Assembly (NCBI GenBank): GCA_004431415.1
Contig: QPMI01000546.1
Location: 1-64,000, forward strand
DNA: 64,000 nucleotides
DNA from: Cyanophora paradoxa CCMP329
Taxonomy: Eukaryota; Plantae; Glaucophyta
Direction of reading: 5' to 3'
The notes under the pieces are model-generated. The model was not told the origin of the DNA, searched no databases, and saw only the letters and a list, made by a program, of their open reading frames with translations. How positions within the stretch are numbered: the first letter of the stretch is position 1; each line of letters begins with the position of its first letter. Positions 1 through 61,397 of the stretch are shown here, one piece after another. The translations under genes were made by a program, and so were the position numbers.

Positions 1-372
1 CGACTGTGCGTACGTGGTGGGGGGCACTTTGCCGTCCGAGCCTGTGCTGCTGCTGCCCTGCTCGCGAACCGCAGCCACCCGGTAGAGTCGGAGCTCGCCG
101 AAATTAAAGGGCGAGTTCGTGTATGTGAGCGTGGGTGCGTTCACCGTGGCCACCAGCGTCCAGGTGCCGTTGAGGCTCGGTGCCCTATACACATTGTACT
201 TGACGGCGTCGGTGACGGCGACCCAATTCATTTGAAATCCAAAGGTACCGCCCCCATTGTTGAGCACTGAGCCCGATCGGATCTGGGGCCTGCCCACCGT
301 GAGCGAGATCGGCTCCACGCCATACTGCGGCGCCTGCACCACCTGCTTCTTCACGAATACGAAGCGGGGCAT
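1..372 (-). CDS. Fibronectin type III-like domain protein (runs off window start; absent from ORF track)
   Basis: Hand translation from ATG 372: MPRFVFVKKQVVQAPQYGVEPISL...FQMNWVAVTDAVKYNVYRAPSLNGTWTLVATVNAPTLTYTNSPFNFGELRLYRVAAVREQG. The W, YxVYR, TYT and YRVxAV pattern is typical of FN3. Confidence 0.7.
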   Translation of the reverse strand, partial: MPRFVFVKKQVVQAPQYGVEPISLTVGRPQIRSGSVLNNGGGTFGFQMNWVAVTDAVKYNVYRAPSLNGTWTLVATVNAPTLTYTNSPFNFGELRLYRVAAVREQGSSSTGSDGKVPPTTYAQS

Positions 373-411
373 GTTCCTCTACGATCCGAAAAAATATCTG
401 CGCCGGGGTAA

Positions 412-1088
412 ATGACTTCCAACTGGTACCAGACCCTCAGCGGCTCACTTGACGTTGGCAACAACACCAAGGATTTCGCGCGCATCCCCTCCGGCAGTTA
501 CGTCGACGTCTTTCTGCAAAATCCCGTCGTGATTCAGGTCGTTCAGAACGCCTACGCCACGCCCAAGATTTACTCCTATCAGCTCTTCTTCGACCCTTGA
601 GCCTCAGCGCAGAGGTCATCGAGCTGCTGCACGAATCCGGCCTCGTGAAAAAGGTGGCGCCGGCGACAGCCACGGCCAACGTCCTGCGCTGTTTGGAAGT
701 TAAGTTCAGGGAGACGGGGTACGGCCCCACCGTGAACCAGTACACCAGTACCGACCTGCCGGGGACGGGTGCGTATACGGCGCGGGGTACGCTCAAGGGC
801 GACGTGCTCTTCACAAAATTCAATCCGAGTCCCGCCACCCTGGGGCCCTCTACACGGGCGGCAACCCGCGCGCTTCCGGGCTACCCCGCTTTCCCTTCAC
901 CTTCTTCAAGTTCCAGGTCTTCCCCTCACGTACGCCGCAGACCAGCCCCATTTCAGCACGGGCGCCAGCCTCTGCGCGGAGCTGCGCGAGTGCTCGATTT
1001 CCTACAGGCACACCACCGGCTCGACGCCGTGCAGCCCGCGGCCCGCATCTCGGGCATCGGCAACGACATCGCCCTCTTCTACGGATAA
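412..1088 (+). CDS. Beta-rich hypothetical protein A (226 aa after repairing four -1 frameshifts); paralogue of 1112-1892
   Basis: Collinear similarity to the neighbouring gene across frames: QNPVVIQV/QNPVMLRI, LHESGLVKKVAP/LWLSGLLKKIEP, LRCLEVKF/IRVLELKF, NPRASGLPRFPFTFFKF/NPRTQVWPRLLFTKFTF, GASLCAELRECSISY/GSTLMAELIEAEADY. Confidence 0.65.
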
Positions 1089-1111
1089 TCTTTCTCATTC
1101 GAGATCGCAAA

Positions 1112-1892
1112 ATGCCGACCACCTCGGCCACCATCGTGAAGACCGTGCTGCCTACCCCGATTTCTACGGCGACACCGTAGCGGCCAACGCTGGGACGGAT
1201 TCCGTGGTCTGGGACGGCAACTACGCCTCCATGCTGACCGTGAAAATCCAGAATCCAGTCATGCTGCGCATCACCTCCAACGACTTCGAGAATCCCGCCT
1301 CCTGCTCCGTGTACGTGTACTTTGACATCGACTCGGGCGTGAGCGCGGACGAGGCCGAGGCCCTCTGGCTTTCCGGCCTCCTTAAAAAGATAGAGCCCTC
1401 CGTACCCGATCGGCCCGCGATTCGCGTGCTCGAGCTCAAGTTCACTGCGAACACCGCCCTCACCCGCACATTTAATGGCGGCTCCAAGACTCACATCGAC
1501 GGTGCTGCCATCGATAGCACGCGCAAAACTACACAGGCCGTCCCTTTGAGATGTACAACCTCTGGAAGATGACCGCAAAGGAGATGATGACGAATGCCAC
1601 CACGGGCGGAGTCTCGGGTACCTCGTTTTCCTACGATTCCTCGAATCCCCGTACCCAGGTCTGGCCCCGGCTTCTCTTCACGAAATTCACTTTCAAATTG
1701 TACAACAACATTGCGGGTATGCCTACCTCTGGAATGGTCGTGGGCTCTACCCTCATGGCCGAGCTGATAGAAGCGGAGGCCGACTACACCACCGCCACCA
1801 CCAACCCTGCAAACGGCACGGCTACAAACTACGTAGCCTGGAGCACGATCGACCGTGAGTACGACACTAAGATTCACACCACTAGCATCTAG
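1112..1892 (+). CDS. Beta-rich hypothetical protein B (260 aa after repairing two -1 frameshifts)
   Basis: ATG at 1112 in an AAAATG context. Joins the 769-1572 and 1551-1892 ORF frames. Paralogous to 412-1088. Confidence 0.65.
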
Positions 1893-2102
1893 ACTGGCTA
1901 AGCTGCATTAGCGCCTGTGCCGCCTCCATCATCTCCGCAATTTCCTCGCTCTTCTCCTGTAAATTGGCGTACCCCCTCCTCTTCTTGCGAATCTCCGACA
2001 TCGATGCCCAGCGCAGGTTCTCCCTCCTGTAGTCCAGCGGGTTGCCGTTGATGTGTTCCACGTAACGACGTCTTGCGAGTCGGTGCACCGGAGCAGGGCC
2101 AT
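1882..2102 (-). CDS. Small HNH (HNH_3-like) protein, one -1 frameshift near the start
   Basis: VHRLARRRYVEHINGNPLDYRRENLRWA matches the HRL...VDHINGNxLDNRxENLRW signature. The ATG at 2102 (AAAATG) comes into frame if one C is added. Confidence 0.7.
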
Positions 2103-2123
2103 TTTGCCCTAGGTTCGGAAAAA

Positions 2124-2225
2124 CCTGGGACTTGGGACTTGGGACTTGGGACTTGGGACTTGGGACTTGGGACTTGGGAAGAGTTGAAACCCAGGTCCCG
2201 GCCCAGACTTTCTCCAGGATCAGAA
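2124..2225 (+). repeat. Heptamer cassette 1: CCTGGGA(CTTGGGA)7 followed by AGAGTT and a ~40-bp semi-conserved tail
   Basis: Read directly; array spans 2124-2179. Confidence 0.95.
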
Positions 2226-2559
2226 ATTTGTCAGACAAGTCAGGTGAGTTTTTCTACCGACTTTTTTACTCCTACCACCCCTCATACTCTTTTTTACTCG
2301 TAGTCTTTTTTACTCGTATCCCATCTCGTACCCTCCTTCTCTCGACATCTCGCACGAAAACTCCTACCCCTCTTCACATCCTTTTTCGGTTGCATACTCT
2401 CGTGAGCTTTCATGTCCAGTATCATGCTACAAGTCGTACACCAGTTCAGACTCTACCTCGCTTGAAATCTCACCTGGAATGTCACCAGAAACGTCGTATC
2501 CAGAATTCCGTACCCCTTTCTAAGTCTGCCCGGTGGTTAGGGACTTGGTGCAGCAAACT

Positions 2560-2646
2560 CTCGGATCCAGTGAAACTCTGGGCCCAGACCCTGAGTCTAA
2601 CTCTTCCCAAGTCCCAAGTCCCAAGTCCCAAGTCCCAAGTCCCAGG
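2560..2646 (-). repeat. Heptamer cassette 2 (inverted relative to cassette 1): CCTGGGA(CTTGGGA)5 AGAGTT plus tail
   Basis: (TCCCAAG)5 TCCCAGG at 2605-2646. The flank GGCCCAGA...TTTC...GGATC is shared with cassette 1. Confidence 0.95.
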
Positions 2647-2717
2647 ATCGCGCCAAGTCGTAACTGAATAGTCGGCCAATTTTTACAAGTATGTACAATG
2701 GAATGACGCAATACTAT

Positions 2718-3768
2718 TTACAGCATCTCAAAGTCAGAGTCATCATCGGAAACCAAGTCAATCGGGGCCTCGGGCGCCGACTTAAGGGGAATGCGGGGAA
2801 GGGCCTGCGCTGCCTGCACTAAGTCCTGCCGCTCCTGCTCGCGCTGCGCCGCCAAGGCCGCTGCCGCCTCTGCCTCGCGCCGCTGCTGAGCCTCGACGCG
2901 CGCCCTAAGTTCCGCTGCCTCCTTCTTCTTGCGCTCGGCAATCTTGGCCAGCGTCATCTCGCGACGAAGAAGGCGCTCGTGACGCAACTTGCGCCGGAGT
3001 TCGGCCATTTCGCGCTTGGCGATGATGCGCTTCTCAATGGTCTTGACGTGCTGAGTCAGGCGCTTGCTGAAGTGTGACGTGACGCGAGAACGGGCAATGC
3101 CAGCGCCGATCTTCAAGTCTTTTTCGTGTTCCTTGGCGGGATTCTTGACTCGCTCGGAGTTGTCGGTGAATGACGTGGTCTCCATGAACTTCTTCTTGAC
3201 GATTGACTTGGTCTTGATAATGCGGCGCTTGCGAGTCGGGTTTTCGTTGTCGCCTTCAGAGTCGGAAGAGGACTCAGAGTCGTATGGAATCGGCACGTCA
3301 AAGTCGATAAAGTCGTTGATGTCAGACTCGGCGTCAGAGGCCTCGGACTCGGCGTCATCGACTGGCTCGGGAGCGGGCTCGGCGACGGGCTGAGGGCAGA
3401 TGACGACGATGACGGAGGGGGGTAATTCGTGAAGACTTGAGGGGGATAGGCCCAGGCGAGCGTCTCGGCGGCAGACTCGGCGAAAAGCTTGGGGTCGCCC
3501 CAGCCAGTGGGAGTCTTGACCCAGCCGGGGACGGGGGCACGTCGACGGGCTCGGGCTTGGGCTCGGGCTTGGGTTGCTTGGACTTGGGCAGAAGGGAGGA
3601 TACAAAGTTGAGGTTGATGGTATGGAAGCCTTCTCCGCTGTGAGCTTGGTAGAGGTACCCCAGCTTGCGGGCACGCTTCTCCATTTCACGGGTAGGCCAA
3701 TCGCGGGACTTAGCCCACATCTCACGGGCCTTGGCAAGGTCCTCGACAAGCTCAGAGGGAATCGACAT
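2718..3768 (-). CDS. Putative nuclear protein (350 aa after two -1 repairs): acidic tract, NLS, coiled coil, C-terminal SUMO-interacting motif
   Basis: ATG at 3768 (MSIPSELVEDL). A middle frame reads GWVKTPTGWGDPKLFAESAAETLAWAY. Then RKRRIIKTK, an E/R/K/A-rich helix, and a C-terminus ending PIDLVSDDDSDFEML. Confidence 0.65.
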
Positions 3769-3827
3769 CTGCGCAAAGGGAAGAGAGATTAGCAAAGGCA
3801 AAACGTGAGGTGACTGAGAGAGCGGAC
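3769..3827 (-). other. Probable 59-nt spliceosomal intron in the 5' UTR, ending immediately before the ATG
   Basis: GTCCGC donor, CTAAT branch point, pyrimidine tract, then GCGCAG|ATG. Confidence 0.5.
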
Positions 3828-4107
3828 TTGTGAAAATTCGGAGAGGCGGGGTTTCCTTGGGCTGAGAGAAGGCGGCGAACCCGTTTCAAGAGTGAGCCAA
3901 AATGGCGGCGGACCGCGGTTTTGTGGGCGATTTTTTTCGCGGTCTAGTTCGCAACGGAAAACGTTGCCAACTGGCCTGAAAAAAGCCAAATTTAGCGTTG
4001 GACCGAAGGCAGAAAAAGGGAGCCGGCCTGACGGAAATCGCCCGAGTGCGTCCGCCGAAGGTCGAGTCTCGGATGGGGGGTACACCCTCAGGGGCCCCCC
4101 TGGCCCC

Positions 4108-4578
4108 TCACCCTGGTAGTGCCCTCTCAAAGGGATTTTCGAAGCCGTACAATTCTTGGTAAGTCTCGTAATCCGGGCTGTACCCCCTCACAATCTGCGG
4201 GAGCCCCATTGAAAGCCTCCGTCTATCCTCTCTCAATTCCCTGCGGAAAAGTCTACGGTCTTCTCGAGCTTCGCGTGTCACGCCAGCTGGGCGTGGTCTA
4301 TGATTGTTAGGGTTGTCGTAGCCTGGTCCCACCAGCCTCACGAAATTTTCGCGTATGGCCTCGGGGAGGCTCTGGAAACGGCTCGTCGCGTGGAACTCAA
4401 TCCATTCATTGAATCGACGCGGATATTGACGGATGACTTCAAGCACGCCCTGTGTGTTGGGCTCTGGTGTTACGTCGGGGATGTCATGTCCCGTGAGGTG
4501 CCAACGCCAGAACTCGCGCAACCTCTCGAATGCCATATTCAACTCAAAGGGAAAATCGTAATAGAGATTGCCTGACAT
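4108..4578 (-). CDS. Hypothetical protein (156 aa, intact, intronless)
   Basis: AAAAATG start reading MSGNLYYDFPFEL. The longer ORF-track version merely reads through the repeat array. Confidence 0.55.
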   Translation of the reverse strand: MSGNLYYDFPFELNMAFERLREFWRWHLTGHDIPDVTPEPNTQGVLEVIRQYPRRFNEWIEFHATSRFQSLPEAIRENFVRLVGPGYDNPNNHRPRPAGVTREAREDRRLFRRELREDRRRLSMGLPQIVRGYSPDYETYQELYGFENPFERALPG

Positions 4579-4589
4579 TTTTCTCCCCG

Positions 4590-4691
4590 TCCGAAAATTT
4601 CCCCGCTTTTGGGTCCAGACTCTGATTCCAACTCTTCCCAAGTCCCAAGTCCCAAGTCCCAAGTCCCAAGTCCCAAGTCCCAAGTCCCAGG
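4590..4691 (-). repeat. Heptamer cassette 3: CCTGGGA(CTTGGGA)7 AGAGTT plus tail, ~57 bp upstream of ATG 4578
   Basis: Array at 4636-4691. Confidence 0.95.
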
Positions 4692-5081
4692 TCACATTTT
4701 TCTCCCATTTTGACTCGAGATTCTGACCAAGTCCAAATCCGGGCCCGGGATTCGAACCCTCGTTTTCGATCGATTTCACGCGTGAAAACGGCACTTTTCG
4801 GCCTTTTCCGATTTTTCCTTTCTCGCGATCGCATTAATGTCCCCGATCTCGAAATCGCGATCGAAAAGGGTCGCGATCGGGAGAAAATCGCGATCGCCAG
4901 GGTCGTGATCGCCGCGATCGCCAGCCTCGGAGGGGGTACCCCCACAGCTGTTGCGGCGGTTATAAGAACCTCCGCAATCCAAGCGTCACTTCCGAGTCTC
5001 GAGCTCTCGGAGTTGACTTTTCGCGTTTGGCCCATTGATGGCCCTCTTATATACAGTATTATAGACTACTACTAGGCTAGT

Positions 5082-5253
5082 GCGCCGCGGCCGCCGCGGC
5101 GGCGCCGCGGCGCCGGCGCCGCGGCCGCGGCCCGCGCGGCGCGCGCGGCCCGGGCGGCCGGGCCCGGCGGCGGGCCGGCCCGGGCGCCGGCGGGCCCGCG
5201 CGCGGCGGCGGGGCGGCGGCGCGCCGGCGGCGCCCGCCGCGGGCCGCGGCGCC
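5082..5253. repeat. 172-bp tract composed only of G and C
   Basis: No A or T between 5082 and 5253. Confidence 0.9.
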
Positions 5254-5488
5254 ACAGACTCAGTGACTGCCACTGTCTGCCAGTCACTGCCGACTCACTG
5301 GGCAGTGGGCCCTGATCGATCACGACTCACGAGTGAGCTCGAGATTCACGACGAATCGTCGACGATGATCAATGACTCAGTTAGTGCCTGGCCGCCGGGC
5401 CCCGGCCCCCGGGCCCAGAGGCACTGCGGCAGACTCAGCCTCACTCAGGCACTGCGGCAGTCTGGCAGTGCCTGGCAGTGGCTGGCAC

Positions 5489-5956
5489 TAGTGCTGGGTT
5501 CAGTCAGGCTCCACCCCTGACCCAGTCGCTCAGCCCCCCTGACTGTGACTGAATCAGTCAACCCGAGGTTCAGTCAGGCTACCGTGCAAAAACTGAGGAA
5601 AATGACTCGGAAATGACCCAGATGCGATCCATCTAAGTTGCCAAGCACAGTGCGCGGGCAGTAAGGACTCTACTAAGGAGTGATTAGGCGAGCAAAGCAT
5701 AAGAACACTGGCCCCCGTTAGCCTCGTTAGCGCGGGCGGTTTCGTTCAGATTTTGTTGTTTTTCTGGAGGTAAGACGACAGAAGATCCTTTTTAGATCGA
5801 TCCACGTCGAGCTTCAGATGGAAAAAGCCCACAGGGGGGCACGCTCCCAGCAGGGTTTTGTATGGGACTGAGAGATCCTCAGTCGGCCAATTTGGTGACT
5901 CAGTCGGGTCAGTCAGACCCTCTGACTTTGACTGACAGTGACTGAACCCAGCCCTA
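5489..5956. mobile_element. hAT-type MITE (468 bp), family 1
   Basis: 18-bp TIRs TAGTGCTGGGTTCAGTCA / TGACTGAACCCAGCCCTA (1 mismatch). Exact 8-bp TSD GCTGGCAC at 5481-5488 and 5957-5964. Subterminal TCAGTCA/TGACTG motifs. Confidence 0.9.
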
Positions 5957-6054
5957 GCTGGCACTGCCTGGCAGCAGCCTGGCTGCCCCGGCACTGCCGT
6001 GAGGCCCGGGGGCCGGGACTCTCGAGTCTCTGGCCCGGGAGTCCGAGGACTCCC

Positions 6055-6110
6055 CGGGAGTCGGGAGTCGGGAGTCGGGAGTCGGGAGTCGGGACTCGGG
6101 AGTCGGGACT
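6055..6110 (+). repeat. (CGGGAGT/CGGGACT)8 heptamer array
   Basis: Read directly. Confidence 0.9.
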
Positions 6111-6397
6111 CTGTTAGCGTCAACTTAGCGAGCGCACTGCGGCAGTCTGCAGCTGTCTGCTGCGCAGAGCGCTCAGGCGGCTCGAGCGCTCCCCGGCTGC
6201 GACTACAGCTAGACTGCGAGCACTGCGGCAGCTACAACGAGCCCAGTAAGCTGCGCGCCGCGGCGCTTAGCACTGCGCTAGCACGCGCGTACCGCGATTG
6301 TTGCCACACGGCCGCCGGCGCCCCAGCCCCGGCCCGCTTTCAGCCGCGGCGCGGCGCTGACGAGCTCGAGATACATGTACATGTGTATATATACACC

Positions 6398-6621
6398 GAT
6401 ATCGCGATCGCATCGCATCCGCTGGTGTGCATTACATGCAAGCGTGCACATACGTATAAGTATTCTATTAGGCTATGCATACCGGTATGATGTGTCTGCG
6501 TGCACTGCGCGACCGATATCGCGATCGCATCGCATCCGCTGGTGTGCATTACATGCAAGCGTGCACATACGTATAAGTATTCTATTAGGCTATGCATACC
6601 GGTATGATGTGTCTGCGTGCA
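6398..6621. repeat. Perfect tandem duplication of 107 bp (period 117)
   Basis: 6398-6504 is identical to 6515-6621. Confidence 0.9.
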
Positions 6622-8058
6622 TATGCATATAACGCTCTCATGCATATATGTGTATGTGTGACCGTCGGACTGCGATACAGCATTAGTACTGACCCGATAG
6701 TCTGCATTTGCGTGCGCAGTTCGAATCATCATTATGACCAACTTGACAAGTGTGGAAAGGCCGATACCTGATCATGATCTGTATGGAATGCAATGTGTAC
6801 CGATACTCCATGGCCAGCACCCGCATGTGCGCAGCTTCCAAAGTTCAAGTTTATGCACGCATAAACGCGCATATCCGCCCCATCAATTGCTTCGATGGTC
6901 TAGATCTGTGGAGCGCAGAGCCGGCGCCGATTGTAAGCGCGGGACAAGGAGAGCGCTACCGCGAGCTCGCTGATTTCACGAGGAACGCGCGTAGAACGCG
7001 TGTGCGCCTTCAGCGCGCCCACACCGGTGCCAGCGCCCATACCAGAGCCGTCGAGCAGCATGCGCAGCACGACACGCTTGAGCTCTGGTCCTGATTGCAA
7101 TCGGCGGTCCGCAGTTGCAGGCTCACCGCGGCACGAGAGATTGGCGAATCGCGGAGTCTGAAGTGTCCATTGCGAAGCCTTCATCTTGAGCCTCGAGCTC
7201 CTTCTACATATATATCCCAGCCTTGAAGATCGGCTATAGTACCTGTGCGCCATATTTCTGACGCGATCTATGACGCGTGATGTTAATGTTCATCCAGTAT
7301 CCTGCGAGTGCAGGCTTGAGCTTGGCCCTCGCGGCCTCAACGCCAGCGAACAGTACGTCAGCGCCAACGAACAGTGGCCTAGGCCCCGGATCCCCGGAGT
7401 CACTCCTCCATTGCTTGCAGGCCGTGCCTTTAAGGGCGAGCCTTGCGATCGATACCGGACGGGCGGGCGGCCGTCCGCGGCCAGCTGCAGCTGCAGGCCC
7501 AGGCCCAGCAGCTCCGGGAATCCGGATCCAGAGCGTTGCCTGCAGCGCTAGCCGCGCGCTGCAGCATTGAGGGAAGGGAGTTCGCGTCGCCGTGCACGTG
7601 CACGCTCGCATCTGGCTTCGATCAGGTAAGAAAAGGACATAGGCGAAACGCAATCGAAGCACAACATGTACATCATGATCAGCCGCTGCTGATCGTTATT
7701 CCGCAGTTTTTTTCCCCTTCAGATCGATCGCCATTCATGAGCTGACAAATGCATGCGAGCAAGTTTCAGATCACGAATTCGAATCTCTGAAAGATCCAAA
7801 ATCCTGAGGTGATCATGACATCAATTCTTTTCAACACTTTTTACGCAACCTTCCGCTGACTGGAAAAAGTCTGTACCGGGATTCTCGGGGCCGATATAAC
7901 AGCCGTTCATTTATCAAATAGCGAATGGAATCCGGAGGTTTCCTTGAGCTTGGCGATCTCCTGAAGCTAGCGCTTGGCCCCCCTTCGAATTCGGGAATGA
8001 CGCAAACAGGCACGCGCAAGCTTTAAAAAGCGTATTTCGGCTCGCGAGTGAATATTAA

Positions 8059-11000
8059 ATGCGCGCGATTTTTGCAGAATGTGCGATCGGCGACATTGCT
8101 CGAGACGCACGAATAAACATCTCCGCTTCGGTATTATCGGAGACCGCGAGGAGTGGGAGGCGGCGGAGTCGCCCGGGTGGGAGCTCGCATGCGAGAACAC
8201 TTTTTTTGCAATTCCTTCTCTGCCTCCTCCTGCTGTCAATGAACACGGCGAGGACCGACGCGTGGTGCGCGGAAGCGGGAATTTTCTCGTGCACGCGGCG
8301 CCGTCATGCGCAGTACTAGTGCTAGCCGCGTCTAAAATGCGCGTTCCCCCAACTTCAATATCTGCTAATTGTAAGCGCGAGCGCAGGGTCACGGTTTCCT
8401 ACAGCGACACCGCGCCCGGCGCTTCCTCCGCGGGCGTCGCCATCCTCGAGTCCGACGCGTTTGTAGGTGCATGGACCCGAAGAATTCGAACCCTATGTCT
8501 CCTTCTGCAAATGCAGCGCTCATGCTCGGGCGGGGTCAGGCTACTACCTCCGAACGGCGTCCCCGGCCCGGTCCCTGTTCGTCTCTGGGAACCTCACGGT
8601 GGGTCGCTCGGGTAGCGGCGGGAGGCTGGCGGTGTCTGGTGCGCAAAACGGATTTCGCGCTCGACGGCACAATTGAAGTCCGACGGTGTGGGGCGCGCGT
8701 GCAGGATCTTCGGTTATCGAGGGGGCAGACTCCAACGACCTGACGCTGCGCGCAGCGACGGATGCTGCACAGGTGAGAGGGCTATCTACGTATACGTGTG
8801 CACGACCGATAAACGCCCTTCGGCCTCGTTGAACGCTGCGGCCCCCGCGGGGTCATCTAAATTCACGCATTTCGAAACCGTCGGGAAAACGTGCAAATAA
8901 AAGTTCTCGCTATTTTCTTGGATCCTCTTTCTAATTGATGAACTCGCCTGTATATTTCGCCGAGCGCAGATAATTCTACGGGCCCGCGGCAGGGCCGGGT
9001 CCGCAGATGCCGGCGCGGCCTCGAGCTCTGACGTCCTTCTGCTCCCGGGCGGGCCCGTGGGCGTCGTGCGTTGGCTTTCGATTCTGTCTTCAATGCCAGG
9101 TCTAGCGGTCCACCTCTTGATTAATTCCTGCGCCAGGTTTCCGTGCTGGGAGCCCTATCGACGCTTGAGGCCAGCAACGTGAGGGCGCCATCCTCCTCGC
9201 CGACCCTCGTCCTCTCCGGGGCACAAGGTGCGCTTCGTTAAAGCTTTCATTACTCTAGCGAGACCATTATCGACCGCCCACGTGCACCTCTTTTAAACCT
9301 TTCAGTTTCTATTCCGCCCCCATGCGCACCCCCCCCCCCCTCCTCCTCCTCCTCCTCCTCCACCCTCCCCCCCCCTCCCCCCCCCCCCCCCCACCACCAC
9401 CATGGCCATTTCCCTCTCAGCACGAACTCTCGCGCCCATTTCTTTGGGGGGCTCCCAAGACCGGCACGTCCTCGCTCCCTCCCCATTTGCCGCGTTAAAT
9501 TTCCACCCTCGAGCTCCCGTGGCCACCTTCCACCGTTCATCCGGATCCCTTCCCCCTCTCGTCATCCTTTCCCTGGCACCTCGCTCCACGAATCCTCCAG
9601 CTTCGCCGCGGCCACCCGAAACGCACGTGGGCAGCGTCTGACTGTACCTTGCAATCGCTTGGCCATGGCAGCAAGCGCTGGCTCCGGCACAGTTTCCGGG
9701 GCTGGAGCGCTTCCCGCCGCTGTCTCGGTCGGAGGCTCCGCATCGCCGAATATCGAATTGCGCCCTGGGAGCGCCGGTACCATTACGGTCCGCCATATTT
9801 TTTTTGGATGATAATTGTTTCATTCTTCTGCTTACTCGTCCAAACATAACAGGCCACGGGGAACCTCGTCCTGGCTTCGAGCCGGGAGCTGAGGATAGAC
9901 GGCGCTGCGCTGACCGCGCTCTCCGCGACGGGAACGCTCTCGGGCAGCTTCGTCCTTCGGAACGCGACCCTGTCCTCGCCGTCTGCGGCCGACGCGCGCC
10001 TGGCGGGCCGCTGGGGGGTCGGCGGGGCGACGCTGGCGCTGTCGGCGGGCGAGGCGCTGCGCTTCGAGGCCGGCCCCAACGGGCAGGCCGTCGATATCGC
10101 GATCGTGCAGTCGGACTCGCTGCGCGCGGTCGCCCCCTTCGTCGCCGAGGCCGGCGTCCAGGTCAACGCGGGTGCGTCCAAGTTGATCGGGCGCCGGCGC
10201 CGGATTTCGAATTCGAATGATGTTCTGAAATCGCGCGCAGGTCTCGTCGCCGCGAACGGCGGGCTGGCGGTGCAAACGTCTCGCTTTCAAGTTGATGCAT
10301 CAGGCAATGTGCTTGTGACCGGCAGCTTGGGAGTGACAGGAACCGTTACGGCCACGGGGTTGCTGGTCCTTCTTGGCGGATCCGGCTCGAAGGGCGGACT
10401 GGATGTCGGGGGGAACCGCTTTACTGTGGACGACAGCGGGAACATGCTCGTCACGGGATCCGCGGGCATCACTGGAACCTTCAGCGCGACGGGTCTGCTG
10501 AACGCGAATGGCGGAATCAACGTTCGGGCGGACCGGTTCACAGTCGACGACAGTGGCAACACACTTGTCACGGGCACGCTCGGGATCACCGGCACCCTCC
10601 GAGCGACTGGCTTGCTCGAGCCCTATGGCGGTATCAACGTACGGACGAGCGCTTTTGCGGTCGACATCAGTGGAAACACGCTCATCACAGGAGATGTAGG
10701 AACTACAGGGACCATCACCGCTACGGGCCTGCTCAACGCGGACGGCGGTCTCAACGTGCACTCGAACAAGCTCGTCATTGACATGAGCGGGAATGTGCTT
10801 GTCACAGGCGCGATCGGGACGACAGGGACCGTCACCGCCACCGGCCTGCTGAACGCGGACGGCGGTCTCAACGTGCACTCGAACAAGCTCGTCGTCGACA
10901 TGAGCGGGAACGCGCTCGCCACGGGCACGGTCGGCATCACGGGGACCGTGACAATCACCGGGCTGATGAACGCGGAGGGCGGCCTCAACGTGCAGGCGAA

Positions 11001-14000
11001 CCGGTTCACTGTCGACATCTCCGGCAACGTGCTGACCAGCGGCACCCTGGGGGTGACGGGGACTGTCACATCGACCGGCATGCTATCGCTGATCGGGGGC
11101 TTCGGCGTCTCGGGGGGCTTCGACGTCGGCACGAACCGATTCGCTGTGGACGCGAGCGGGAACACGATCGTGACGGGCTCCTTGGGTGTGACTGGCACAG
11201 TGACCTCGACGGGCCTGCTGAACGCGGACGGCGGCCTCAACGTGCACTCGAACAAGCTCGTCATTGACATGAGCGGGAATGTGCTTGTCACAGGCGCAAT
11301 CGGGACGACGGGGACCGTCACCGCCACTGGGCTGCTGAACGCGGACGGCGGCCTGAACGTGCACTCGAACAAGCTGTCGGTCGACATGAGCGGGAACACG
11401 CTCGCGACGGGCACGGTCGGCGTGACAGGGACCGTGACGATCACCGGGCTGATCAACGCGGACGGCGGCCTCAACATGCAGGCAAACCGGTTCACTGTCG
11501 ACATCTCCGGCAACGTGCTGACCAGCGGCACCCTGGGGGTGACGGGGACTGTTACATCGACCGGGATGCTGTCGCTGATCGGGGGCTTCGGCGTCACGGG
11601 GGGCTTCGACGTCGGCACGAACCGATTCGCTGTGGACGCGAGCGGGAACACGATCGTGACGGGCTCCTTGGGTGTGACTGGCACAGTGACCTCGACGGGC
11701 CTGCTGAACGCGGACGGCGGCCTCAACGTGCACTCAAACAAGCTGTCGGTCGACATGAGCGGGAATGTGCTTGTCACAGGCGCAATCGGGACGACGGGGA
11801 CCGTCACCGCCACCGGCCTGCTGAACGCGGACGGCGGCCTCAACGTGCACTCGAACAAGCTCATCATCGACATGAGTGGGAACACGCTCGCGACAGGCAC
11901 GGTCGGCATCACGGGGACCGTGACAATCACTGGGCTGATGAACGCGGAGGGCGGCCTCAACGTGCAGGCAAATCGGTTCACTGTCGACATCTCCGGCAAC
12001 GTGCTGACCAGCGGCACTCTTGGGGTGACGGGGACTGTCACATCGACCGGCATGCTGTCGCTGATTGGAGGCTTCGGCGTCTCGGGGGGCTTCGACGTCG
12101 GCACGAACCGATTCGCTGTGGACGCGAGCGGAAACGCACTGGTGACGGGTTTCGTGGGTGTGACGGGCACAGTGACCTCGACGGGCCTCCTGAACGCGGA
12201 TGGGTATCTGAACGTGCATGCGAACAAGCTGTCGATTGACATGAGCGGGAATGCGCTGGTGACGGGCGCAATGGGGCTGACGGGCACGGTGACCTCGACG
12301 GGCCTGCTGAACGCGGACGGCTATCTGAATGTTCGTACCAACAAGTTTGTGATTGACGCGAGCGGGAATGCGATGGTGACAGGCTCGATGGGACTGACGG
12401 GCACCGTCACCTCGACGGGCCTGCTGATTGTGGAGGGTGGTCTCAACGTGCACGCCAACAAGTTTACAATCGACATGAGCGGGAATGCGCTGGTGACCGG
12501 CGCGGTGGGGCTGACGGGCACTGTGACCTCGACGGGCCTGCTGAGCGTGGAGGGTGGCCTGAACGTGCACGCCAACAAGCTCACAATTGATATGAGCGGG
12601 AATGCGCTGGTGACCGGCACAGTGGGGCTGACGGGGACGGTGACGTCAACGGGTCTGCTGAGCGTGGAGGGTGGCCTCAACGTGCACGCGAACAAGCTCT
12701 CGATCGATATAAGCGGAAATGCGCTTGTCACGGGGACAATGGGGCTGACGGGCACTGTGACGTCAACGGGTCTGCTCAACTCGTTCGGCTACCTGAACGT
12801 GTATGCGAACAAGCTGTCGATCGATGTTAGCGGGAACGTGCTGGTTACAGGCGCGATGGGGCTTACAGGCACGGTAACCTCGACGGGCCTGTTGAACGCA
12901 GACGGCTATCTGAACGTGCAAACGAACAGGTTCGTCATCGACGCGAGCGGGAACGTGCTCGCCACCGGCACCCTTGCAGTGACGGGAACGGTGACTTCGA
13001 CGGGCTTGCTGGCTCTAATCGGGGGCTTCGACCTGTCCGGGGGCTTCAATGTCGGCACAAATCGGTTTGTGGTGGACGCAGGCGGAAATTCAATTGTGAC
13101 GGGCTTCTTGGGTTTGACCGGCACGGTGACTTCAACGGGCCTGCTGAACGCGGATGGCTACCTGAATGTGCACGTCAACAAGCTCTCGATCGACATGAGC
13201 GGAAACGCACTGGTGACGGGTTTCGTGGGTGTGACGGGCACAGTGACCTCGACGGGCCTCCTGAACGCGGATGGGTATCTGAACGTGCATGCGAACAAGC
13301 TGTCGATTGACATGAGCGGGAATGCGCTGGTGACGGGCGCAATGGGGCTGACGGGTACCGTCACCTCGACGGGCCTGCTGAACGCGGACGGCTATCTGAA
13401 TGTTCGTACCAACAAGTTTGTGATTGACGCGAGCGGGAATGCACTGGTGACAGGCTCGATGGGACTGACGGGCACCGTCACCTCGACGGGCCTGCTGATT
13501 GTGGAGGGTGGCCTGAACGTGCACGCCAACAAGCTCACAATTGATATGAGCGGGAATGCGCTGGTGACCGGCGCGGTGGGGCTGACGGGCACTGTGACCT
13601 CGACGGGCCTGCTGAGCGTGGAGGGTGGCCTGAACGTGCGCGCCAACAAGCTCACAATTGATATGAGCGGGAATGCGCTGGTGACCGGCACAGTGGGGCT
13701 GACGGGGACGGTGACGTCAACGGGTCTGCTGAGCGTGGAGGGTGGCCTCAACGTGCACACGAACAAGCTCTCGATCGATATAAGCGGAAATGCGCTTGTC
13801 ACGGGGACAATGGGGCTGACGGGCACTGTGACGTCAACGGGTCTGCTCAACTCGTTCGGCTACCTGAACGTGTATGCGAACAAGCTGTCGATCGATGTTA
13901 GCGGGAACGTGCTGGTTACAGGCGCGATGGGGCTTACAGGCACGGTAACCTCGACGGGCCTGTTGAACGCAGACGGCTATCTGAACGTGCAAACGAACAG

Positions 14001-17000
14001 GTTCGTCATCGACGCGAGCGGGAACGTGCTCGCCACCGGCACCCTTGCAGTGACGGGAACGGTGACTTCGACGGGCTTGCTGGCTCTAATCGGGGGCTTC
14101 GACCTGTCCGGGGGCTTCAATGTCGGCACAAATCGGTTTGTGGTGGACGCAGGCGGAAATTCAATTGTGACGGGCTTCTTGGGTTTGACCGGCACGGTGA
14201 CTTCAACGGGCCTGCTGAACGCGGATGGCTACCTGAATGTGCACGTCAACAAGCTCTCGATCGACATGAGCGGAAACGCACTGGTGACGGGTTTCGTGGG
14301 TGTGACGGGCACAGTGACCTCGACGGGCCTCCTGAACGCGGATGGGTATCTGAACGTGCATGCGAACAAGCTGTCGATTGACATGAGCGGGAATGCGCTG
14401 GTAACGGGCGCAATGGGGCTGACGGGTACCGTCACCTCGACGGGCCTGCTGAACGCGGACGGCTATCTGAATGTTCGTACCAACAAGTTTGTGATTGACG
14501 CGAGCGGGAATGCGCTGGTGACTGGCGCGGTGGGACTGACGGGCACCGTCACCTCGACGGGCCTGCTGAGCGTGGAGGGTGGTCTCAACGTGCACGCCAA
14601 CAAGTTTACAATCGACATGAGCGGGAATGCACTGGTGACAGGCTCGATGGGACTGACGGGCACCGTCACCTCGACGGGCCTGCTGAGCGTGGAGGGTGGC
14701 CTGAACGTGCACGCCAACAAGTTTACAATCGACATGAGCGGGAATGCGCTGGTGACCGGCGCGGTGGGGCTGACGGGGACGGTGACGTCAACGGGTCTGC
14801 TGAGCGTGGAGGGTGGCCTCAACGTGCACACGAACAAGCTCTCGATCGATATAAGCGGAAATGCGCTTGTCACGGGGACAATGGGGCTGACGGGCACTGT
14901 GACGTCAACGGGTCTGCTCAACTCGTTCGGCTACCTGAACGTTTATGCGAACAAGCTGTCGATCGATGTTAGCGGGAACGTGCTGGTTACAGGCGCGATG
15001 GGGCTTACAGGCACGGTAACCTCGACGGGCCTGTTGAACGCAGACGGCTATCTGAACGTGCAAACGAACAGGTTCGTCATCGACGCGAGCGGGAACGTGC
15101 TCGCCACCGGCACCCTTGCAGTGACGGGAACGGTGACTTCGACGGGCTTGCTGGCTCTAATCGGGGGCTTCGACCTGTCCGGGGGCTTCAATGTCGGCAC
15201 AAATCGGTTTGTGGTGGACGCAGGCGGAAATTCAATTGTGACGGGCTTCTTGGGTTTGACCGGCACGGTGACTTCAACGGGCCTGCTGAACGCGGACGGC
15301 TACCTGAATGTGCACGTCAACAAGCTCTCGATCGACATGAGCGGAAACGCACTGGTGACGGGTTTCGTGGGTGTGACGGGCACAGTGACCTCGACGGGCC
15401 TCCTGAACGCGGATGGGTATCTGAACGTGCATGCGAACAAGCTGTCGATTGACATGAGCGGGAATGCGCTGGTGACGGGCGCAATGGGGCTGACGGGTAC
15501 CGTCACCTCGACGGGCCTGCTGAACGCGGACGGCTATCTGAATGTTCGTACCAACAAGTTTGTGATTGACGCGAGCGGGAATGCACTGGTGACAGGCTCG
15601 ATGGGACTGACGGGCACCGTCACCTCGACGGGCCTGCTGATTGTGGAGGGTGGCCTGAACGTGCACGCCAACAAGCTCACAATTGATATGAGCGGGAATG
15701 CGCTGGTGACCGGCGCGGTGGGGCTGACGGGCACTGTGACCTCGACGGGCCTGCTGAGCGTGGAGGGTGGCCTGAACGTGCGCGCCAACAAGCTCACAAT
15801 TGATATGAGCGGGAATGCGCTGGTGACCGGCACAGTGGGGCTGACGGGGACGGTGACGTCAACGGGTCTGCTGAGCGTGGAGGGTGGCCTCAACGTGCAC
15901 GCGAACAAGCTCTCGATCGATATAAGCGGAAATGCGCTTGTCACGGGCACAATGGGGCTGACGGGCACTGTGACGTCAACGGGTCTGCTCAACTCGTTCG
16001 GCTACCTGAACGTGTATGCGAACAAGCTGTCGATCGATGTTAGCGGGAACGTGCTGGTTACAGGCGCGATGGGGCTTACAGGCACGGTAACCTCGACGGG
16101 CCTGTTGAACGCAGACGGCTATCTGAACGTGCAAACGAACAGGTTCGTCATCGACGCGAGCGGGAACGTGCTCGCCACCGGCACCCTTGCAGTGACGGGA
16201 ACGGTGACTTCGACGGGCTTGCTGGCTCTAATCGGGGGCTTCGACCTGTCCGGGGGCTTCAATGTCGGCACAAATCGGTTTGTGGTGGACGCAGGCGGAA
16301 ATTCAATTGTGACGGGCTTCTTGGGTTTGACCGGCACGGTGACTTCAACGGGCCTGCTGAACGCGGACGGCTACCTGAATGTGCACGTCAACAAGCTCTC
16401 GATCGACATGAGCGGAAACGCACTGGTGACGGGTTTCGTGGGTGTGACGGGCACAGTGACCTCGACGGGCCTCCTGAACGCGGATGGGTATCTGAACGTG
16501 CATGCGAACAAGCTGTCGATTGACATGAGCGGGAATGCGCTGGTGACGGGCGCAATGGGGCTGACGGGTACCGTCACCTCGACGGGCCTGCTGAACGCGG
16601 ACGGCTATCTGAATGTTCGTACCAACAAGTTTGTGATTGACGCGAGCGGGAATGCACTGGTGACAGGCTCGATGGGACTGACGGGCACCGTCACCTCGAC
16701 GGGCCTGCTGAGCGTGGAGGGTGGTCTCAACGTGCACGCCAACAAGTTTACAATCGACATGAGCGGGAATGCGCTGGTGACCGGTGCGGTGGGGCTGACG
16801 GGCACTGTGACCTCGACGGGCCTGCTGAGCGTGGAGGGTGGCCTGAACGTGCACGCCAACAAGCTCACAATTGATATGAGCGGGAATGCGCTGGTGACCG
16901 GCACAGTGGGGCTGACGGGGACGGTGACGTCAACGGGTCTGCTGAGCGTGGAGGGTGGCCTCAACGTGCACGCGAACAAGCTCTCGATCGATATAAGCGG

Positions 17001-19917
17001 AAATGCGCTTGTCACGGGCACAATGGGGCTGACGGGCACTGTGACGTCAACGGGTCTGCTCAACTCGTTCGGCTACCTGAATGTTTATGCGAACAAGCTG
17101 TCGATCGATGTTAGCGGGAACGTGCTGGTTACAGGCGCGATGGGGCTTACAGGCACGGTAACCTCGACGGGCCTGTTGAACGCAGACGGCTATCTGAACG
17201 TGCAAACGAACAGGTTCGTCATCGACGCGAGCGGGAACGTGCTCGCCACCGGCACCCTTGCAGTGACGGGAACGGTGACTTCGACGGGCTTGCTGGCTCT
17301 AATCGGGGGCTTCGACCTGTCCGGGGGCTTCAATGTCGGCACAAATCGGTTTGTGGTGGACGCAGGCGGAAATTCAATTGTGACGGGCTTCTTGGGTTTG
17401 ACCGGCACGGTGACTTCAACGGGCCTGCTGAACGCGGACGGCTACCTGAATGTGCACGTCAACAAGCTCTCGATCGACATGAGCGGAAACGTGCTGGTGA
17501 CGGGCGCGATGGGAATCACGGGCACCTTCACCTCGACGGGCCTGATGAACGTGCTGGGGGCGGCGGCGTTCACGTCGCTGGTGAAAGCAAACGGCGGCGT
17601 GAACGTGATCGCGAACCGCTTCGTGGTCGACACGAGCGGGAATGCGCTGGCGACGGGCACGGTCGGCATCACGGGCTCGTTGTCCTCGACGGGCCTGCTG
17701 AGCGTAGAGGGCGGTCTCAACGTGCACGCGAACAAGCTCTCGATCGACATGAGCGGGAACGTACTGGTGACGGGCACAATGGGCATCACGGGCACCTTCA
17801 CGTCGACGGGCCTCCTGAACGTGGAGGGGGCGGCGGTGGTCACGTCTCTGGTGAACGCGAACGGCGGCGTGAACGTGATCGCGAACCGCTTCGTTGTCGA
17901 CACGAGCGGGAATGCGCTGGCGACGGGCACGGTCGGCATCACGGGCACGGTGTCCTCGACGGGCCTGCTGAGCGTAGAGGGCGGTCTCAACGTGCACGCG
18001 AACAAGCTCTCGATCGACATGAGCGGGAACGTGCTGGTGACGGGCACAATGGGCATCACGGGCACCTTCACGTCGACGGGCCTCCTGAACGTGGAGGGGG
18101 CGGCGGTGGTCACGTCTCTGGTGAACGCGAACGGCGGCGTGAACGTGATAGCGAACCGCTTCGTTGTCGACACGAGCGGGAATGCGCTGGCGACGGGCAC
18201 GGTCGGCATCACGGGCACGGTGTCCTCGACGGGCCTGCTGAGCGTAGAGGGCGGTCTCAACGTGCACGCGAACAAGCTCTCGATCGACATGAGCGGGAAC
18301 GTGCTGGTGACGGGCACAATGGGCATCACGGGCACCTTCACGTCGACGGGCCTCCTGAACGTGGAGGGGGCGGCGGTGGTCACGTCTCTGGTGAACGCGA
18401 ACGGCGGCGTGAACGTGATCGCGAACCGCTTCGTGGTCGACACGAGCGGGAATGCGCTGGCGACGGGCACGGTCGGCATCACGGGCTCGGTGACCTCGAC
18501 GGGGCTGCTGAACGCCGACGGCGGGTTCAACGTAAATGCGAACCGTTTCAGCATTGATGTGAGTGGTAACGTGCTCGTGACGGGTACCTTCGGAATCACG
18601 GGTACTATCACCTCCACGGGTCTGCTTTCGCTCACGGGTGGCATCAACATTCGAAATGCTGCCGGCACCATTCCTCGCCTCGTCGTCGATCCCCTCGGGG
18701 AGCTGTCTTCATCTGCCAACGTCGCCGTTCGGGGCGATGTCACGACGACTGGAATGATACGCGCATTCGCAACCGCCATTGCCCGCAATGGATACACGAC
18801 TGCCGGCGGCGGGACAGACATTGTCCCAGCCCTGGAGGTCAATGGGCGCGCCGTGTTCAAGGCGTTTACCTCCGTCCCCGGGTCCAGCGAATTGCCTCCG
18901 CAGTTCGAGTGGGGTCTTCGTGTCGTCAACCCCGCTTTGAGCGATGGCGTAAACCCTTCCACGACTCTTTTCGAAGTCGGAAGGGGCACTTCGCCTGAAA
19001 GTATGATCGTTCTTGCGACGGGGACTGTCGGCATCACGGGAACTACGAGCTGCACTGCACTGCTGAACGCGGAAGGTGGCATCAACGTTCGGTCGAACAA
19101 GTTTGCTGTCGACATGAGCGGGAACGCGTTGCTCACTGGAGCGCTCGGCATTACGGGGACCTTGACATCCACTGGCATGCTGAGTGTTGATGGCGGCATA
19201 CTTGTGAGCACGAACAAGTTCTCCGTCGACGTGTCGGGCAATGCAGCCGTCACGGGGTCCCTGACGGTGACGGGCGGCATTAACTCCGTCGGCTCAATCA
19301 CGTCAACGGGTATGCTGTATGCAAACGGGGGCATAACGGTGAACGTGAACAAGTTCATTGTCGACGGCACCAGTGGCAATACCCAGATCTCGGGCTCCCT
19401 CACGGTTACGGGGGCGATCACGGCCGGCACGGGCGTGACGGTGACCAGCGGCGGGGCTACCATCACAGATGGCGGCCTGACCGTCAACGGGGGCAGTTCG
19501 CTGACGCAGACGTTGACGGTCAACACGGGCGGCCTGACGGTGGCCGCGGGCGGCCTGACGGTGAGCACGGGCGGCCTGGCTGTGACAGGGGTTATTACGG
19601 CTAACAATGGAATCGCTCACAAAGCGGCCACGACGAGGACAGTTGTTGCTGCTGGCTCGCTTACACTGGACCCAGCAACAGACACGGTTCAGCAGATCAT
19701 CAACGCTGCAGGCCTGACGACGGGAGCGTATACTGTCACGTTCAGCAATTGCGTGGCTGGCTATAATGGGTTTACTTTTTGGATTTATGTTGAGAGTCTA
19801 GGAGCAGGCGCCGTGACTGTCAAAGGGGTCGGTCTTGGAACCGGAAGAGCTGCTATGTGCATGTGCTTCGCTGCTGTCAGCAATTTCCTTTGCAGTTCTT
19901 TCTTCAGCAATTTCTAG
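8059..19917 (+). CDS. Giant G/T/V/N-rich repeat protein, beta-helix/fibre-like, possibly secreted (start uncertain)
   Basis: Uninterrupted exon 10241-19917 with about 70 units of a 39-aa repeat (TGTVTSTGLLNADGGLNVHANKLSIDMSGNALVTGAMGL) and 45/51-aa variants. Short upstream exons (VTVSYSDTAPG..., RSLFVSGNLTVGRSG..., ALRFEAGPNG...). In-frame 69-nt GT-AG intron at 10172-10240. Hydrophobic TLFLQFLLCLLLLS near 8197-8238. Confidence 0.8.
10741..18510 (+). repeat. Nested higher-order coding repeats: ~3 x 486 bp, 5 x 1071 bp (12130-17484), ~3 x 270 bp
   Basis: Recurrences at 10741/11227/11713; 12130/13201/14272/15343/16414; 17701/17971/18241. Unit arithmetic: 486=3x117+135, 1071=8x117+135, 270=117+153. 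Confidence 0.95.
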
Positions 19918-45230: not shown

Positions 45231-45629
45231 TGGATGCTGCAAATTCTGCGGTTGCTGCGGTTGTGCGGACTGCGTGGTCCTCGGGCCTCTAGAAGCTTCG
45301 CCGATTATCAGGTAAGCAATGTGTACCCCCTAAATCGCGCGCGTGCGCACGAAGGCGACCTGCCGCGTGCGCACGCCCCGGCTTCGCATGCGCACGCCCC
45401 GGCCCGGCCCGGCGCTTCGCACGGCGCGCGCGCTGTGGCTGGCCTTTAAAATTCGAAGACAGTGAAAGGCCGGGCGCTAGCGCTGCGCATGCTTGCCAGC
45501 GCTAGCCGGCGCCGGCGCCGGCGCCCGGCCCCAGCTGCAGCTGCAGCTAGCTTTAGCGCTACCTGGCGCTAGCGCAAGCTGTAGATCTAGATCTGGCGCA
45601 CAGCCTAGGCCTGGCCGGGCGCGCGAGGC

Positions 45630-61193: not shown

Positions 61194-61397
61194 GCGCTAT
61201 AAATTCGACAGGCGCACGCGATTGTATTTACAGATGCAGATAACGACGATTGCTACAGCTGCAGATTGTATTTACAGCTTATATTGTTTTCTTCCTCATC
61301 GTCCTGATTTTAGAGGTGGCGCCTCCGAAGGGCCCCGCGGGGTGGGATCGCCGGGCCGGGGGACCGGGCCGGGGCCGGGGCCGGGGCCGCGGGCGCC

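What the first reader, a model, noticed from the sequence alone, without database searches (positions are those of the whole stretch)
1..5079. Right end of an endogenous Polinton-like virus with an adenovirus-style protein-priming terminus
Seen: a compact, nearly intronless gene block ends at 5'-AGTAGTAGTCTATAATACTGTATATAAG (minus strand from 5073), followed by an abrupt compositional break. Known: Polintons/Mavericks have AG...CT termini with short tandem repeats such as (AGT)n and 5-6 bp TSDs, and adenovirus origins likewise pair a trinucleotide repeat with an AT-rich core. Inference: this is an integrated protein-primed DNA virus whose visible cargo is mostly orphan genes, possibly a new lineage. 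The predicted TSD is AGGCT(A) at 5074-5079.
Basis: partly seen in the sequence, partly recalled or inferred. Interest (0 to 1): 0.8.

Follow-up and report, generated by a model that had tools for sequence, protein, structure and literature searches.

The report
Algal endogenous virus ending at TATATA
This is one end of a virus-like DNA element repeated on dozens of contigs in the alga Cyanophora paradoxa; related sequence at other loci stops at a TATATA site, so the adenovirus-like AGTAGTAGT motif 20 bases further out is likely not the element's end and gives no support for protein-primed copying.

Summary
The motif is real: AGTAGTAGTCTATAATAC reads on the minus strand from 5073. Bases 1-5053 belong to a multicopy element of Cyanophora paradoxa. 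Its genes have models on at least 47 contigs, with conserved adjacency on 19 of 19 testable contigs. It encodes a fibronectin-III stalk protein with at least five swappable tips, two paralogues weakly predicted to be OB-fold ssDNA-binding proteins, an HNH relic and two orphans.

The boundary is probably misplaced. In public contigs the shared sequence runs into unlike flanks at 5053 (12 contig ends in 4 of 4 runs), directly after CCCTCT-TATATA. None of the 17 rows shown lies at 5073. One short solo piece has TATATA on both sides. The (ACT)3 and the 'TSD' AGGCTA are therefore likely flank. The compositional break is only a 172-bp GC-only stretch.

No polymerase, capsid or integrase lies in the window, and upstream DNA could not be fetched. 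The scan probably saw this family before on other DNA (e1-10416734, HUH Rep, unreviewed). Polinton-like viruses in this genome are already catalogued (366 capsid genes, PMC10120064).

Verdict: new member of a known kind, with a corrected end.

The parts
1..372 (-). Gene A, N-terminal 124 aa (continues left of the window). Multi-FN3 stalk protein with a variable C-terminal tip; likely a virion fibre or receptor-binding protein.
   Evidence: 21 hits: 17 carry Cyanophora gene names, 2 unnamed EukProt proteins are 99-100% identical to the window, P0054 is also a named model, 1 is a weak ENA hit. Pfam fn3/RGI_lyase. Stalks 71-97% identical over 55 pairs, tips in at least 5 groups. Tip domains include fibrinogen-like GGGW and Gly_rich_2.
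412..1088 (+). Gene B. Intact relatives are 226 aa; here the frame changes near 600 and again within about 850-1050. Paralogue of C.
   Evidence: tblastn with P0034. B versus C 29% identity, E 2e-17. AF2 pLDDT 38, best Z 4.8, T7 gp2.5 Z 3.5.
1112..1892 (+). Gene C. Intact relatives are 260-270 aa; here there are two frame changes, near 1157 and 1548. Weakly predicted OB-fold, T7 gp2.5-like ssDNA-binding protein.
   Evidence: 98-100% identical to P0005 in three pieces. AF2 pLDDT 47. Top structural rows are OB-type proteins, best Z 4.9; 1je5 Z 4.0, rmsd 5.4, 110 aligned.
1885..2115 (-). HNH endonuclease relic with no upstream ATG; its frame runs into the first 7-mer array.
   Evidence: Pfam HNH_3 E 2.7e-6; PHROG HNH E 5.8e-7; ORF listing.
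2123..2205 (+). Module 1: (GGGACTT)n array plus a conserved tail of about 30 bp; G-quadruplex-type pattern.
   Evidence: 7.7 copies; 90% inverted match to 4610-4692 over 83 nt; G4 pattern match.
2572..2646 (-). Module 2, facing module 1 across 359 nt of pyrimidine-rich spacer.
   Evidence: The array's translation also appears in a gene model from another contig, P0025.
2718..3768 (-). Gene D, an orphan of about 350 codons split over two frames: Pro-rich linker, acidic patch, basic patch, coiled-coil-like end.
   Evidence: No Pfam, PHROG or NCBIfam hit above cut-off. Not searched against the large protein database.
4108..4578 (-). Gene E, 156-aa orphan ORF (unverified gene).
   Evidence: 0 of 182 candidates scored; no usable Atlas hit.
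4610..4692 (-). Module 3 of the 7-mer array, just upstream of gene E.
   Evidence: 8.3 copies; 94% direct match to module 2 over 66 nt.
4700..5047 (.). High-copy non-coding terminal region (GATC/CGATCG-rich) ending in CCCTCT-3', with a subterminal hairpin at about 4985-5017. May be a TIR; the left end was not seen.
   Evidence: Single contig records at about 27-49 times the depth of long single-locus contigs in X1-X3 (table 8; rough). Hairpin on the minus strand z -2.87, 1 of 200 shuffles as good, one of 6 stretches folded.
5048..5053 (.). TATATA: likely target site, TSD or recombination core at the shared right boundary.
   Evidence: 12 contig ends leave the reference after 5053 with unlike flanks (consensus agreement 0.53-0.6 where several are pooled). 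A solo 4993-5053 piece has TATATA on both sides.
5054..5081 (.).
   Evidence: no junction at 5073 among the 17 rows shown.

Best explanation
Bases 1-5053 are the right end of a DNA element whose genes recur on at least 47 contigs of the alga Cyanophora paradoxa, likely an endogenous virus of the polinton-like-to-mriyavirus range that likely ends at CCCTCT and would insert at TATATA sites. Shown: multicopy status, conserved A-B-C gene order, tip swapping on the FN3 protein, and junctions of at least six loci clustered at 5053-5055. Inferred: A is a capsid fibre whose exchangeable tips vary receptor binding. B and C are duplicated ssDNA-binding proteins that would coat displaced strands. An integrase encoded upstream (RVE making a 6-bp TATATA duplication, or a tyrosine recombinase using TATATA as crossover core) would place copies in TA-rich tracts. 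After excision the DNA would most likely copy by HUH-initiated rolling-circle replication rather than protein priming; this step rests on an unreviewed note on a probably identical family. The (ACT)3 beyond the boundary would be flank. The frame changes in B and C fall in short C runs of otherwise near-identical genes and may be long-read assembly errors.
For: Multicopy: 32 named A models on 32 contigs and 40 named B/C models on 34 contigs, 47 contigs in union. On 19 of 19 contigs that have both, they lie within two gene numbers. Tips: stalks 71-97% identical, but only 7 of 55 tip pairs match, forming 5 groups; a sixth type is P0052. Boundary: 12 contig ends at 5053 in 4 of 4 runs, plus one locus at 5055 in X1-X3, all after a full TATATA. 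One 8-kb single-locus contig carries only 4993-5053 with TATATA on its left, and a second junction at 5001 also has a TA-run on its left. The 3' end CT fits the AG...CT ends of Mavericks (PMC8097293 passages). SSB: the top 14 structural rows for C are OB-type proteins (fold labels recalled), including T7 gp2.5, LEF-3 and DUF2815; 1je5 and 4klk recur for B. Gamadviruses have a T7-like SSB (PMC11253617 section 6). HUH and RVE both occur in Zora/VC218 PLVs (bioRxiv 10.64898/2026.06.19.733378 section 6). Four of the six Cyanophora MCPs listed in PMC10120064 Table S2 hit ascovirus or iridovirus capsids, and two hit a Pyramimonas virus capsid.
Against: (AGT)3 in the right orientation 20 bp from the boundary is unlikely by chance: 1 in 64 kb, 2 of 100 shuffles. 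It matches the commonest Maverick end motif. Some 5053 junctions are solo end pieces, not full copies, and 2 loose-end rows were not shown. One X2 contig shares 7 more bases, to 5060. Both folds are low-confidence (pLDDT 47 and 38; every Z under 5; no Foldseek hit at E<=0.001). No capsid, ATPase, integrase, pPolB or HUH was seen here. No free viral relative was found.
Confidence: 0.55

Rival explanations
1. One reading: a pPolB Polinton or PLV whose TIR ends at 5073 in (ACT)3 with the 6-bp TSD AGGCTA. The 5053 junctions would come from a separate set of short derivatives.
For: The motif is rare by shuffle and matches the 5'-(AGT)2//(ACT)2-3' end used for jumping-back priming (PMC8097293). Adintovirus-like PolB and integrase relatives exist in this genome (PMC8502044 passage).
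Against: No junction at 5073 among 17 rows, against 12 contig ends at 5053. This reading needs two different mobile ends. The unreviewed note e1-10416734 reports HUH Rep for what looks like the same family.
Confidence: 0.17
2. A pPolB/RVE PLV whose true end is 5'-AGAGGG at 5047 (a two-copy AG repeat that would still allow slide-back priming), with TATATA as a preferred 6-bp TSD.
For: The boundary evidence. (AG)3//(CT)3 is a known Maverick end type. RVE typically makes 6-bp TSDs (PMC12220804 passage).
Against: Only (AG)2 is present. No pPolB was seen. Solo pieces with internal left ends are hard to make with RVE.
Confidence: 0.1
3. The element has no integrase and inserts by HUH-mediated rolling-circle transposition, as IS91, Helitrons and Replitrons do: one fixed end at a TA target and a variable far end.
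For: Two short pieces share the fixed right end but start at different internal points (4993, 5001), both inside the subterminal hairpin and next to TA-runs. One contig carries 7 extra bases, like a 'fuzzy end'. Rep transposons show target specificity and hairpins (bioRxiv 10.1101/2022.12.15.520654 passages). Mriyaviruses lack integration genes.
Against: Only two short pieces were seen. HUH was not verified here. Deletion remnants could explain them. That preprint found no Replitron-like proteins in glaucophytes.
Confidence: 0.13
4. Nested insertion, compatible with the best explanation: 5048-5073 is the real tip of a second, Polinton-type element into whose AT-rich TIR this element inserted.
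For: It explains both the rare (ACT)3 and the 5053 junctions. A second locus shares TATATACAGTATT. About 7% of this genome is estimated to be PLV DNA (PMC10120064 Table S4).
Against: No direct evidence. 5054-5260 matches elsewhere in the window only through GC-rich low-complexity hits.
Confidence: 0.15
5. A capsid-less transposon or amplified host gene cluster, not a virus.
For: No virion core gene was seen, and GC equals that of the neighbouring intergenic DNA.
Against: Dense, intron-poor genes, an HNH relic and a stalk protein with swapped lectin-like tips are typical of viruses. Host genes in the window are intron-rich and 74% GC.
Confidence: 0.05

Closest known systems
Endogenous PLVs of Cyanophora paradoxa counted by Bellas et al. 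2023 (PMC10120064; 366 MCP genes in two clusters of 272 and 94, in columns headed 'new')
   Same: Same host, multicopy integrated virus-like elements. This family is probably one of them.
   Different: Could not link this family to either MCP cluster. The main text has no occurrence of 'TATA'.
Zoravirus (VC102) and VC218 mriyavirus-like PLVs (bioRxiv 10.64898/2026.06.19.733378)
   Same: PLV-sized groups in which HUH endonuclease and RVE integrase are both common; this fits the inferred replicate-and-integrate logic.
   Different: HUH, RVE, MCP and Mriya48 were not testable here. No fixed TATATA target is described in the section read.
Gamadviridae, class Mriyaviricetes (PMC11253617)
   Same: T7 gp2.5-like OB-fold SSB (weak structural hint here); two HUH domains reported for the probable same family by an unreviewed note.
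   Different: Mriyaviruses lack integration genes and list one SSB. This element is integrated in dozens of copies and has a paralogous pair.
Mavericks/Polintons (PMC8097293)
   Same: An (ACT)3 motif near the end, an alternative CT-3' end and a 6-bp candidate TSD.
   Different: The motif appears to lie outside the shared sequence. The candidate TSD is fixed rather than varied. No pPolB, integrase, protease or ATPase is visible.
Rep-mobilised transposons (Helitron, IS91, Replitron)
   Same: Fixed end, target preference, subterminal hairpin, short derivatives.
   Different: This element carries virion-type cargo, and no Rep was seen here.

Membership tests
Maverick/Polinton | [quoted passage not shown] | not testable with these tools
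   Not in 1-5073. No genome is held, so upstream DNA could not be read.
Maverick/Polinton | RVE integrase | not testable with these tools
   Lies outside the window if present.
Maverick/Polinton | Terminal inverted repeats | not testable with these tools
   The left end is not in the window; one match only for the end motif.
Maverick/Polinton | (AGT)2//(ACT)2 or (AG)3//(CT)3 motif at the very end | tested here: inconclusive
   (ACT)3 is present at 5065-5073, but junctions cluster at 5053; at 5047 only (CT)2.
Maverick/Polinton | 6-bp target site duplication | tested here: inconclusive
   TATATA on both sides of one solo piece. The left copy of AGGCTA cannot be checked.
Polinton-like viruses (broad) | Multicopy endogenous element with dense, intron-poor genes | tested here: met
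   47 contigs, with synteny on 19 of 19; high depth of the terminal region.
Polinton-like viruses (broad) | Double jelly-roll MCP and A32 ATPase | not testable with these tools
   None in the window. The low-confidence B/C models gave no jelly-roll row, which does not exclude one.
Polinton-like viruses (broad) | Fibre or adhesin proteins (common, not strictly defining) | tested here: inconclusive
   FN3 stalk with swapped tips, PHROG tail-protein hits; virion location not shown.
Mriyaviricetes / Gamadviridae / Zora-like | HUH endonuclease | not testable with these tools
   Reported only by the unreviewed note e1-10416734 on another piece.
Mriyaviricetes / Gamadviridae / Zora-like | T7-like OB-fold SSB (PEV_26) | tested here: inconclusive
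   1je5 Z 4.0 for C and Z 3.5 for B, on low-confidence models.
Mriyaviricetes / Gamadviridae / Zora-like | NCLDV-like MCP, VLTF2/3, Mriya48, RuvC | not testable with these tools
   Outside the window.
Rep-mobilised transposons | Fixed end at a preferred target, variable other end, terminal hairpin | tested here: inconclusive
   Two short pieces and a hairpin of z -2.87.

The most novel reading that the evidence does not exclude
A virion-forming relative of giant viruses that enters the host chromosome with no integrase. It would use its rolling-circle HUH nickase as a Helitron/IS91-style transposase aimed at TATATA tracts, leave short one-ended fragments behind, and diversify its FN3 fibre tips across dozens of stored copies.
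Probability: 0.13. Interest if true: 0.8.

Novelty: new member of a known kind. Interest (0 to 1): 0.4.

Why it matters
The result corrects a persuasive but probably wrong terminus call and moves the likely replication mode away from protein priming. What remains of interest is a young family of dozens of copies in a cultured, sequenced glaucophyte, with an apparently fixed TATATA insertion site and a fibre with interchangeable tips. That makes two open questions cheap to test: how HUH-type (mriyavirus-like) viruses become endogenous, and whether tip swapping stores receptor diversity in the host genome.

Tried and rejected

Terminus scans. One viral-contig hit to the 18-mer (L001) is an unrelated AT-rich contig with no further similarity. 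The 23-mer before TATATA gave 0 hits in metagenome and viral contigs. Protein-based locus searches found no relative: 0 of 88, 0 of 591, 0 of 11 and 0 of 8 pattern matches.

Sequencing runs. There is zero cover at 5064-5095 in 4 of 4 runs. The 5050-5063 bin equals only 2.6-3.2 of 14 positions at the previous depth in X1-X3. This fits an end at 5053, but it is not counted as evidence because the tool filters records and this locus's own junction is missing too. No RNA holder is on record. The guessed-RNA run X15 gave one contig; no conclusion on expression. Read depth over the gene block 1-4700 was not obtained.

B and C as capsid proteins. There is no jelly-roll row, no PDB sequence hit (0 at E<=10) and no Foldseek hit at E<=0.001. 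The Atlas gave only a 0.80 lead to a cluster with 12% Nanovirus_coat. The capsid reading is unsupported but not excluded.

The profile search of 1.84 billion representatives gave 8 hits. Six looked up afterwards are Cyanophora models, as are P0001 and P0002.

A CRESS-type nonamer look-alike at 5054-5062 (motif recalled) was rejected: 24 of 100 shuffles contain the pattern and no stem-loop forms (z +1.18 and +0.61). The 4840-4930 palindromic region folds no better than shuffles (z about -1). Rfam gave 0 hits in 1-7000.

Paper searches. No paper holds all of polinton-like, integrat, TA dinucleotide and target site duplication. Cyanophora plus Polinton gave 5 papers. These searches are narrow. 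The element sequences of the Bellas dataset were not seen and may already describe this family. bioRxiv supplements were not read.


Full report
Observation. The motif is there: AGTAGTAGTCTATAATAC on the minus strand from 5073, followed on the plus strand by AGGCTA. AGTAGTAGT occurs once in the window and in 2 of 100 shuffles. The 'abrupt compositional break' is local. A 172-bp GC-only stretch lies at 5082-5253, but the element (57.1% GC) and the flank 5261-9000 (57.6%) are alike, whereas host genes at 22-47 kb are 74% GC.

Host and copy number. Homologues of the ORF at 1112-1892 carry EukProt accessions of Cyanophora paradoxa. Named models of gene A occur on 32 contigs and of B/C on 34, 47 in union. 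On all 19 contigs with both they lie within two gene numbers. These are lower bounds, since only some clusters were expanded. Single contig records over 4700-5050 are about 27-49 times deeper than long single-locus contigs in three DNA runs (rough). One unnamed ENA protein at about 64-70% identity to C is the only clear relative outside these models.

Anatomy. Gene A (1-372, continuing left) is a 450-700-aa protein in full-length copies. Its FN3 stalk is 71-97% identical among copies. Its tip falls into at least five mutually non-matching groups among 11 proteins, plus a Gly-rich type; one tip is fibrinogen-like. I infer a virion fibre with exchangeable receptor tips. B (226 aa) and C (260-270 aa) are 29%-identical paralogues. 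The window's C is 98-100% identical to P0005 but split by two frame changes in short C runs, possibly assembly errors. AF2 models are poor (pLDDT 47 and 38). For C the top 14 of 50 structural rows are OB-type proteins by my recall of their folds, including T7 gp2.5 (Z 4.0), but no Z reaches 5. For B the list is mixed, with 1je5 and 4klk the longest plausible alignments. An SSB role is thus a weak prediction. An HNH relic, three copies of a (GGGACTT)n module and two orphan ORFs, D and E, complete the block.

Where the element ends. Laying four public runs on 4700-5095 gave 17 listed loose-end rows, with 2 more not shown. Twelve contig ends leave the reference after 5053 (X1 2, X2 4, X3 5, X15 1) with 255 or more unlike letters, and the pooled flanks disagree. 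One locus leaves at 5055 in X1-X3, one short contig at 5060 and one at 4746; none leaves at 5073. The runs are of one organism, so this is at least six loci, not twelve. All keep the full TATATA after CCCTCT. An 8-kb single-locus contig holds only 4993-5053 with TATATA on its left, and another junction at 5001 has a TA-run on its left. So 5047/5053 is a mobile boundary with a fixed TA target. That it is also the end of full-length copies is an inference. Against it, the (ACT)3 is rare and matches the commonest Maverick end (PMC8097293 passages). The lack of cover beyond 5063 is reported under Tried and rejected only.

How it likely works. A virus DNA stored in dozens of chromosomal copies would be inserted at TATATA by an integrase encoded upstream: RVE with a 6-bp duplication, or YR with TATATA as core. 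It would be excised, copied with the help of the B/C ssDNA-binding pair, and packaged with fibre A. For the copying step I favour HUH rolling-circle replication. An unreviewed scan note on an 18-kb piece of this genome describes a paralogous pair, fibres, telomere-like arrays, dozens of copies and HUH Rep (e1-10416734). The description fits this family, and I reached the same DNA-binding prediction independently, but I could not check the HUH or the identity of the family. Protein priming stays possible from a 5'-AGAG end (0.10). Integrase-free HUH transposition is the boldest reading (0.13); it rests on two short one-ended pieces and a subterminal hairpin (z -2.87, one of six stretches folded).

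Comparison with what is known. Endogenous PLVs in C. paradoxa are catalogued: 366 MCP genes in two clusters, about 7% of the genome (PMC10120064, supplement rows; main-text passages). PMC12220804 mentions fibre and lectin domains in glaucophyte PLVs (passages; supplement hits). PMC8502044 notes adintovirus-like proteins in this genome (passage). Gamadviruses have two HUH domains and a T7-like SSB (PMC11253617 abstract and section 6, parts 1-2 of 3). Zora and VC218 PLVs often have HUH and RVE, whereas mriyaviruses lack integration genes (bioRxiv 10.64898/2026.06.19.733378, passages and section 6). Replitron end features come from passages of bioRxiv 10.1101/2022.12.15.520654, and terminal palindromes of Halocafeteria elements from passages of bioRxiv 10.64898/2026.07.28.741278. 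The element works like an integrating PLV. Membership in Polintons, mriyaviruses or Zora cannot be decided, because the defining genes lie outside the window.

Verdict. A real end of a young multicopy endogenous virus-like family, in a host where such elements are already known. The specific claim of an adenovirus-style protein-priming terminus is probably wrong by 20 bases and unsupported mechanistically. New member of a known kind; interest 0.4.

Noticed in passing
window 9850-19917 (+): A 3355-codon open frame built from about 64 copies of a 39-aa repeat with higher-order periods, resembling a beta-solenoid or fibre-like adhesin. Only weak Pfam hits (SBBP E 5.9e-6).
   Followed up: partly
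window 5082-5253: A 172-bp stretch of only G and C, by far the longest in the window (next is 49 bp), right beside the element's end.
   Followed up: partly
window 5254-6330: Motif-rich non-coding region (GACTCA and GCACTGCGGCAG repeats, short inverted arms) with a (CGGGAGT)7.7 array at 6055-6108 that resembles the element's GGGACTT array. It could be the end of another mobile element; there is no other copy in the window.
   Followed up: partly
window 2123-4692: The outer 7-mer modules form an 83-bp inverted repeat around genes D and E and truncate the HNH gene; this could be an invertible or separately inserted cassette.
   Followed up: no
X1-X3 8-kb contig; X2 junction at 5001: Solo 47-55-bp end fragments of the element sit in TA-runs at single-copy loci.
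   Followed up: partly
window about 22900-31100 (-): Intron-rich host gene with GAF/PHY/kinase/receiver-like peptide stretches, probably a phytochrome (recognised by eye; single-frame Pfam scans gave no hit).
   Followed up: partly
window 45600-47300 and 59500-61200: Inverted duplicate gene pair (81-93% arms) encoding coiled-coil proteins with a RING-like CxxC motif.
   Followed up: no
window 6395-6621: Exact 110-bp tandem duplication (period 117) in intergenic DNA.
   Followed up: no
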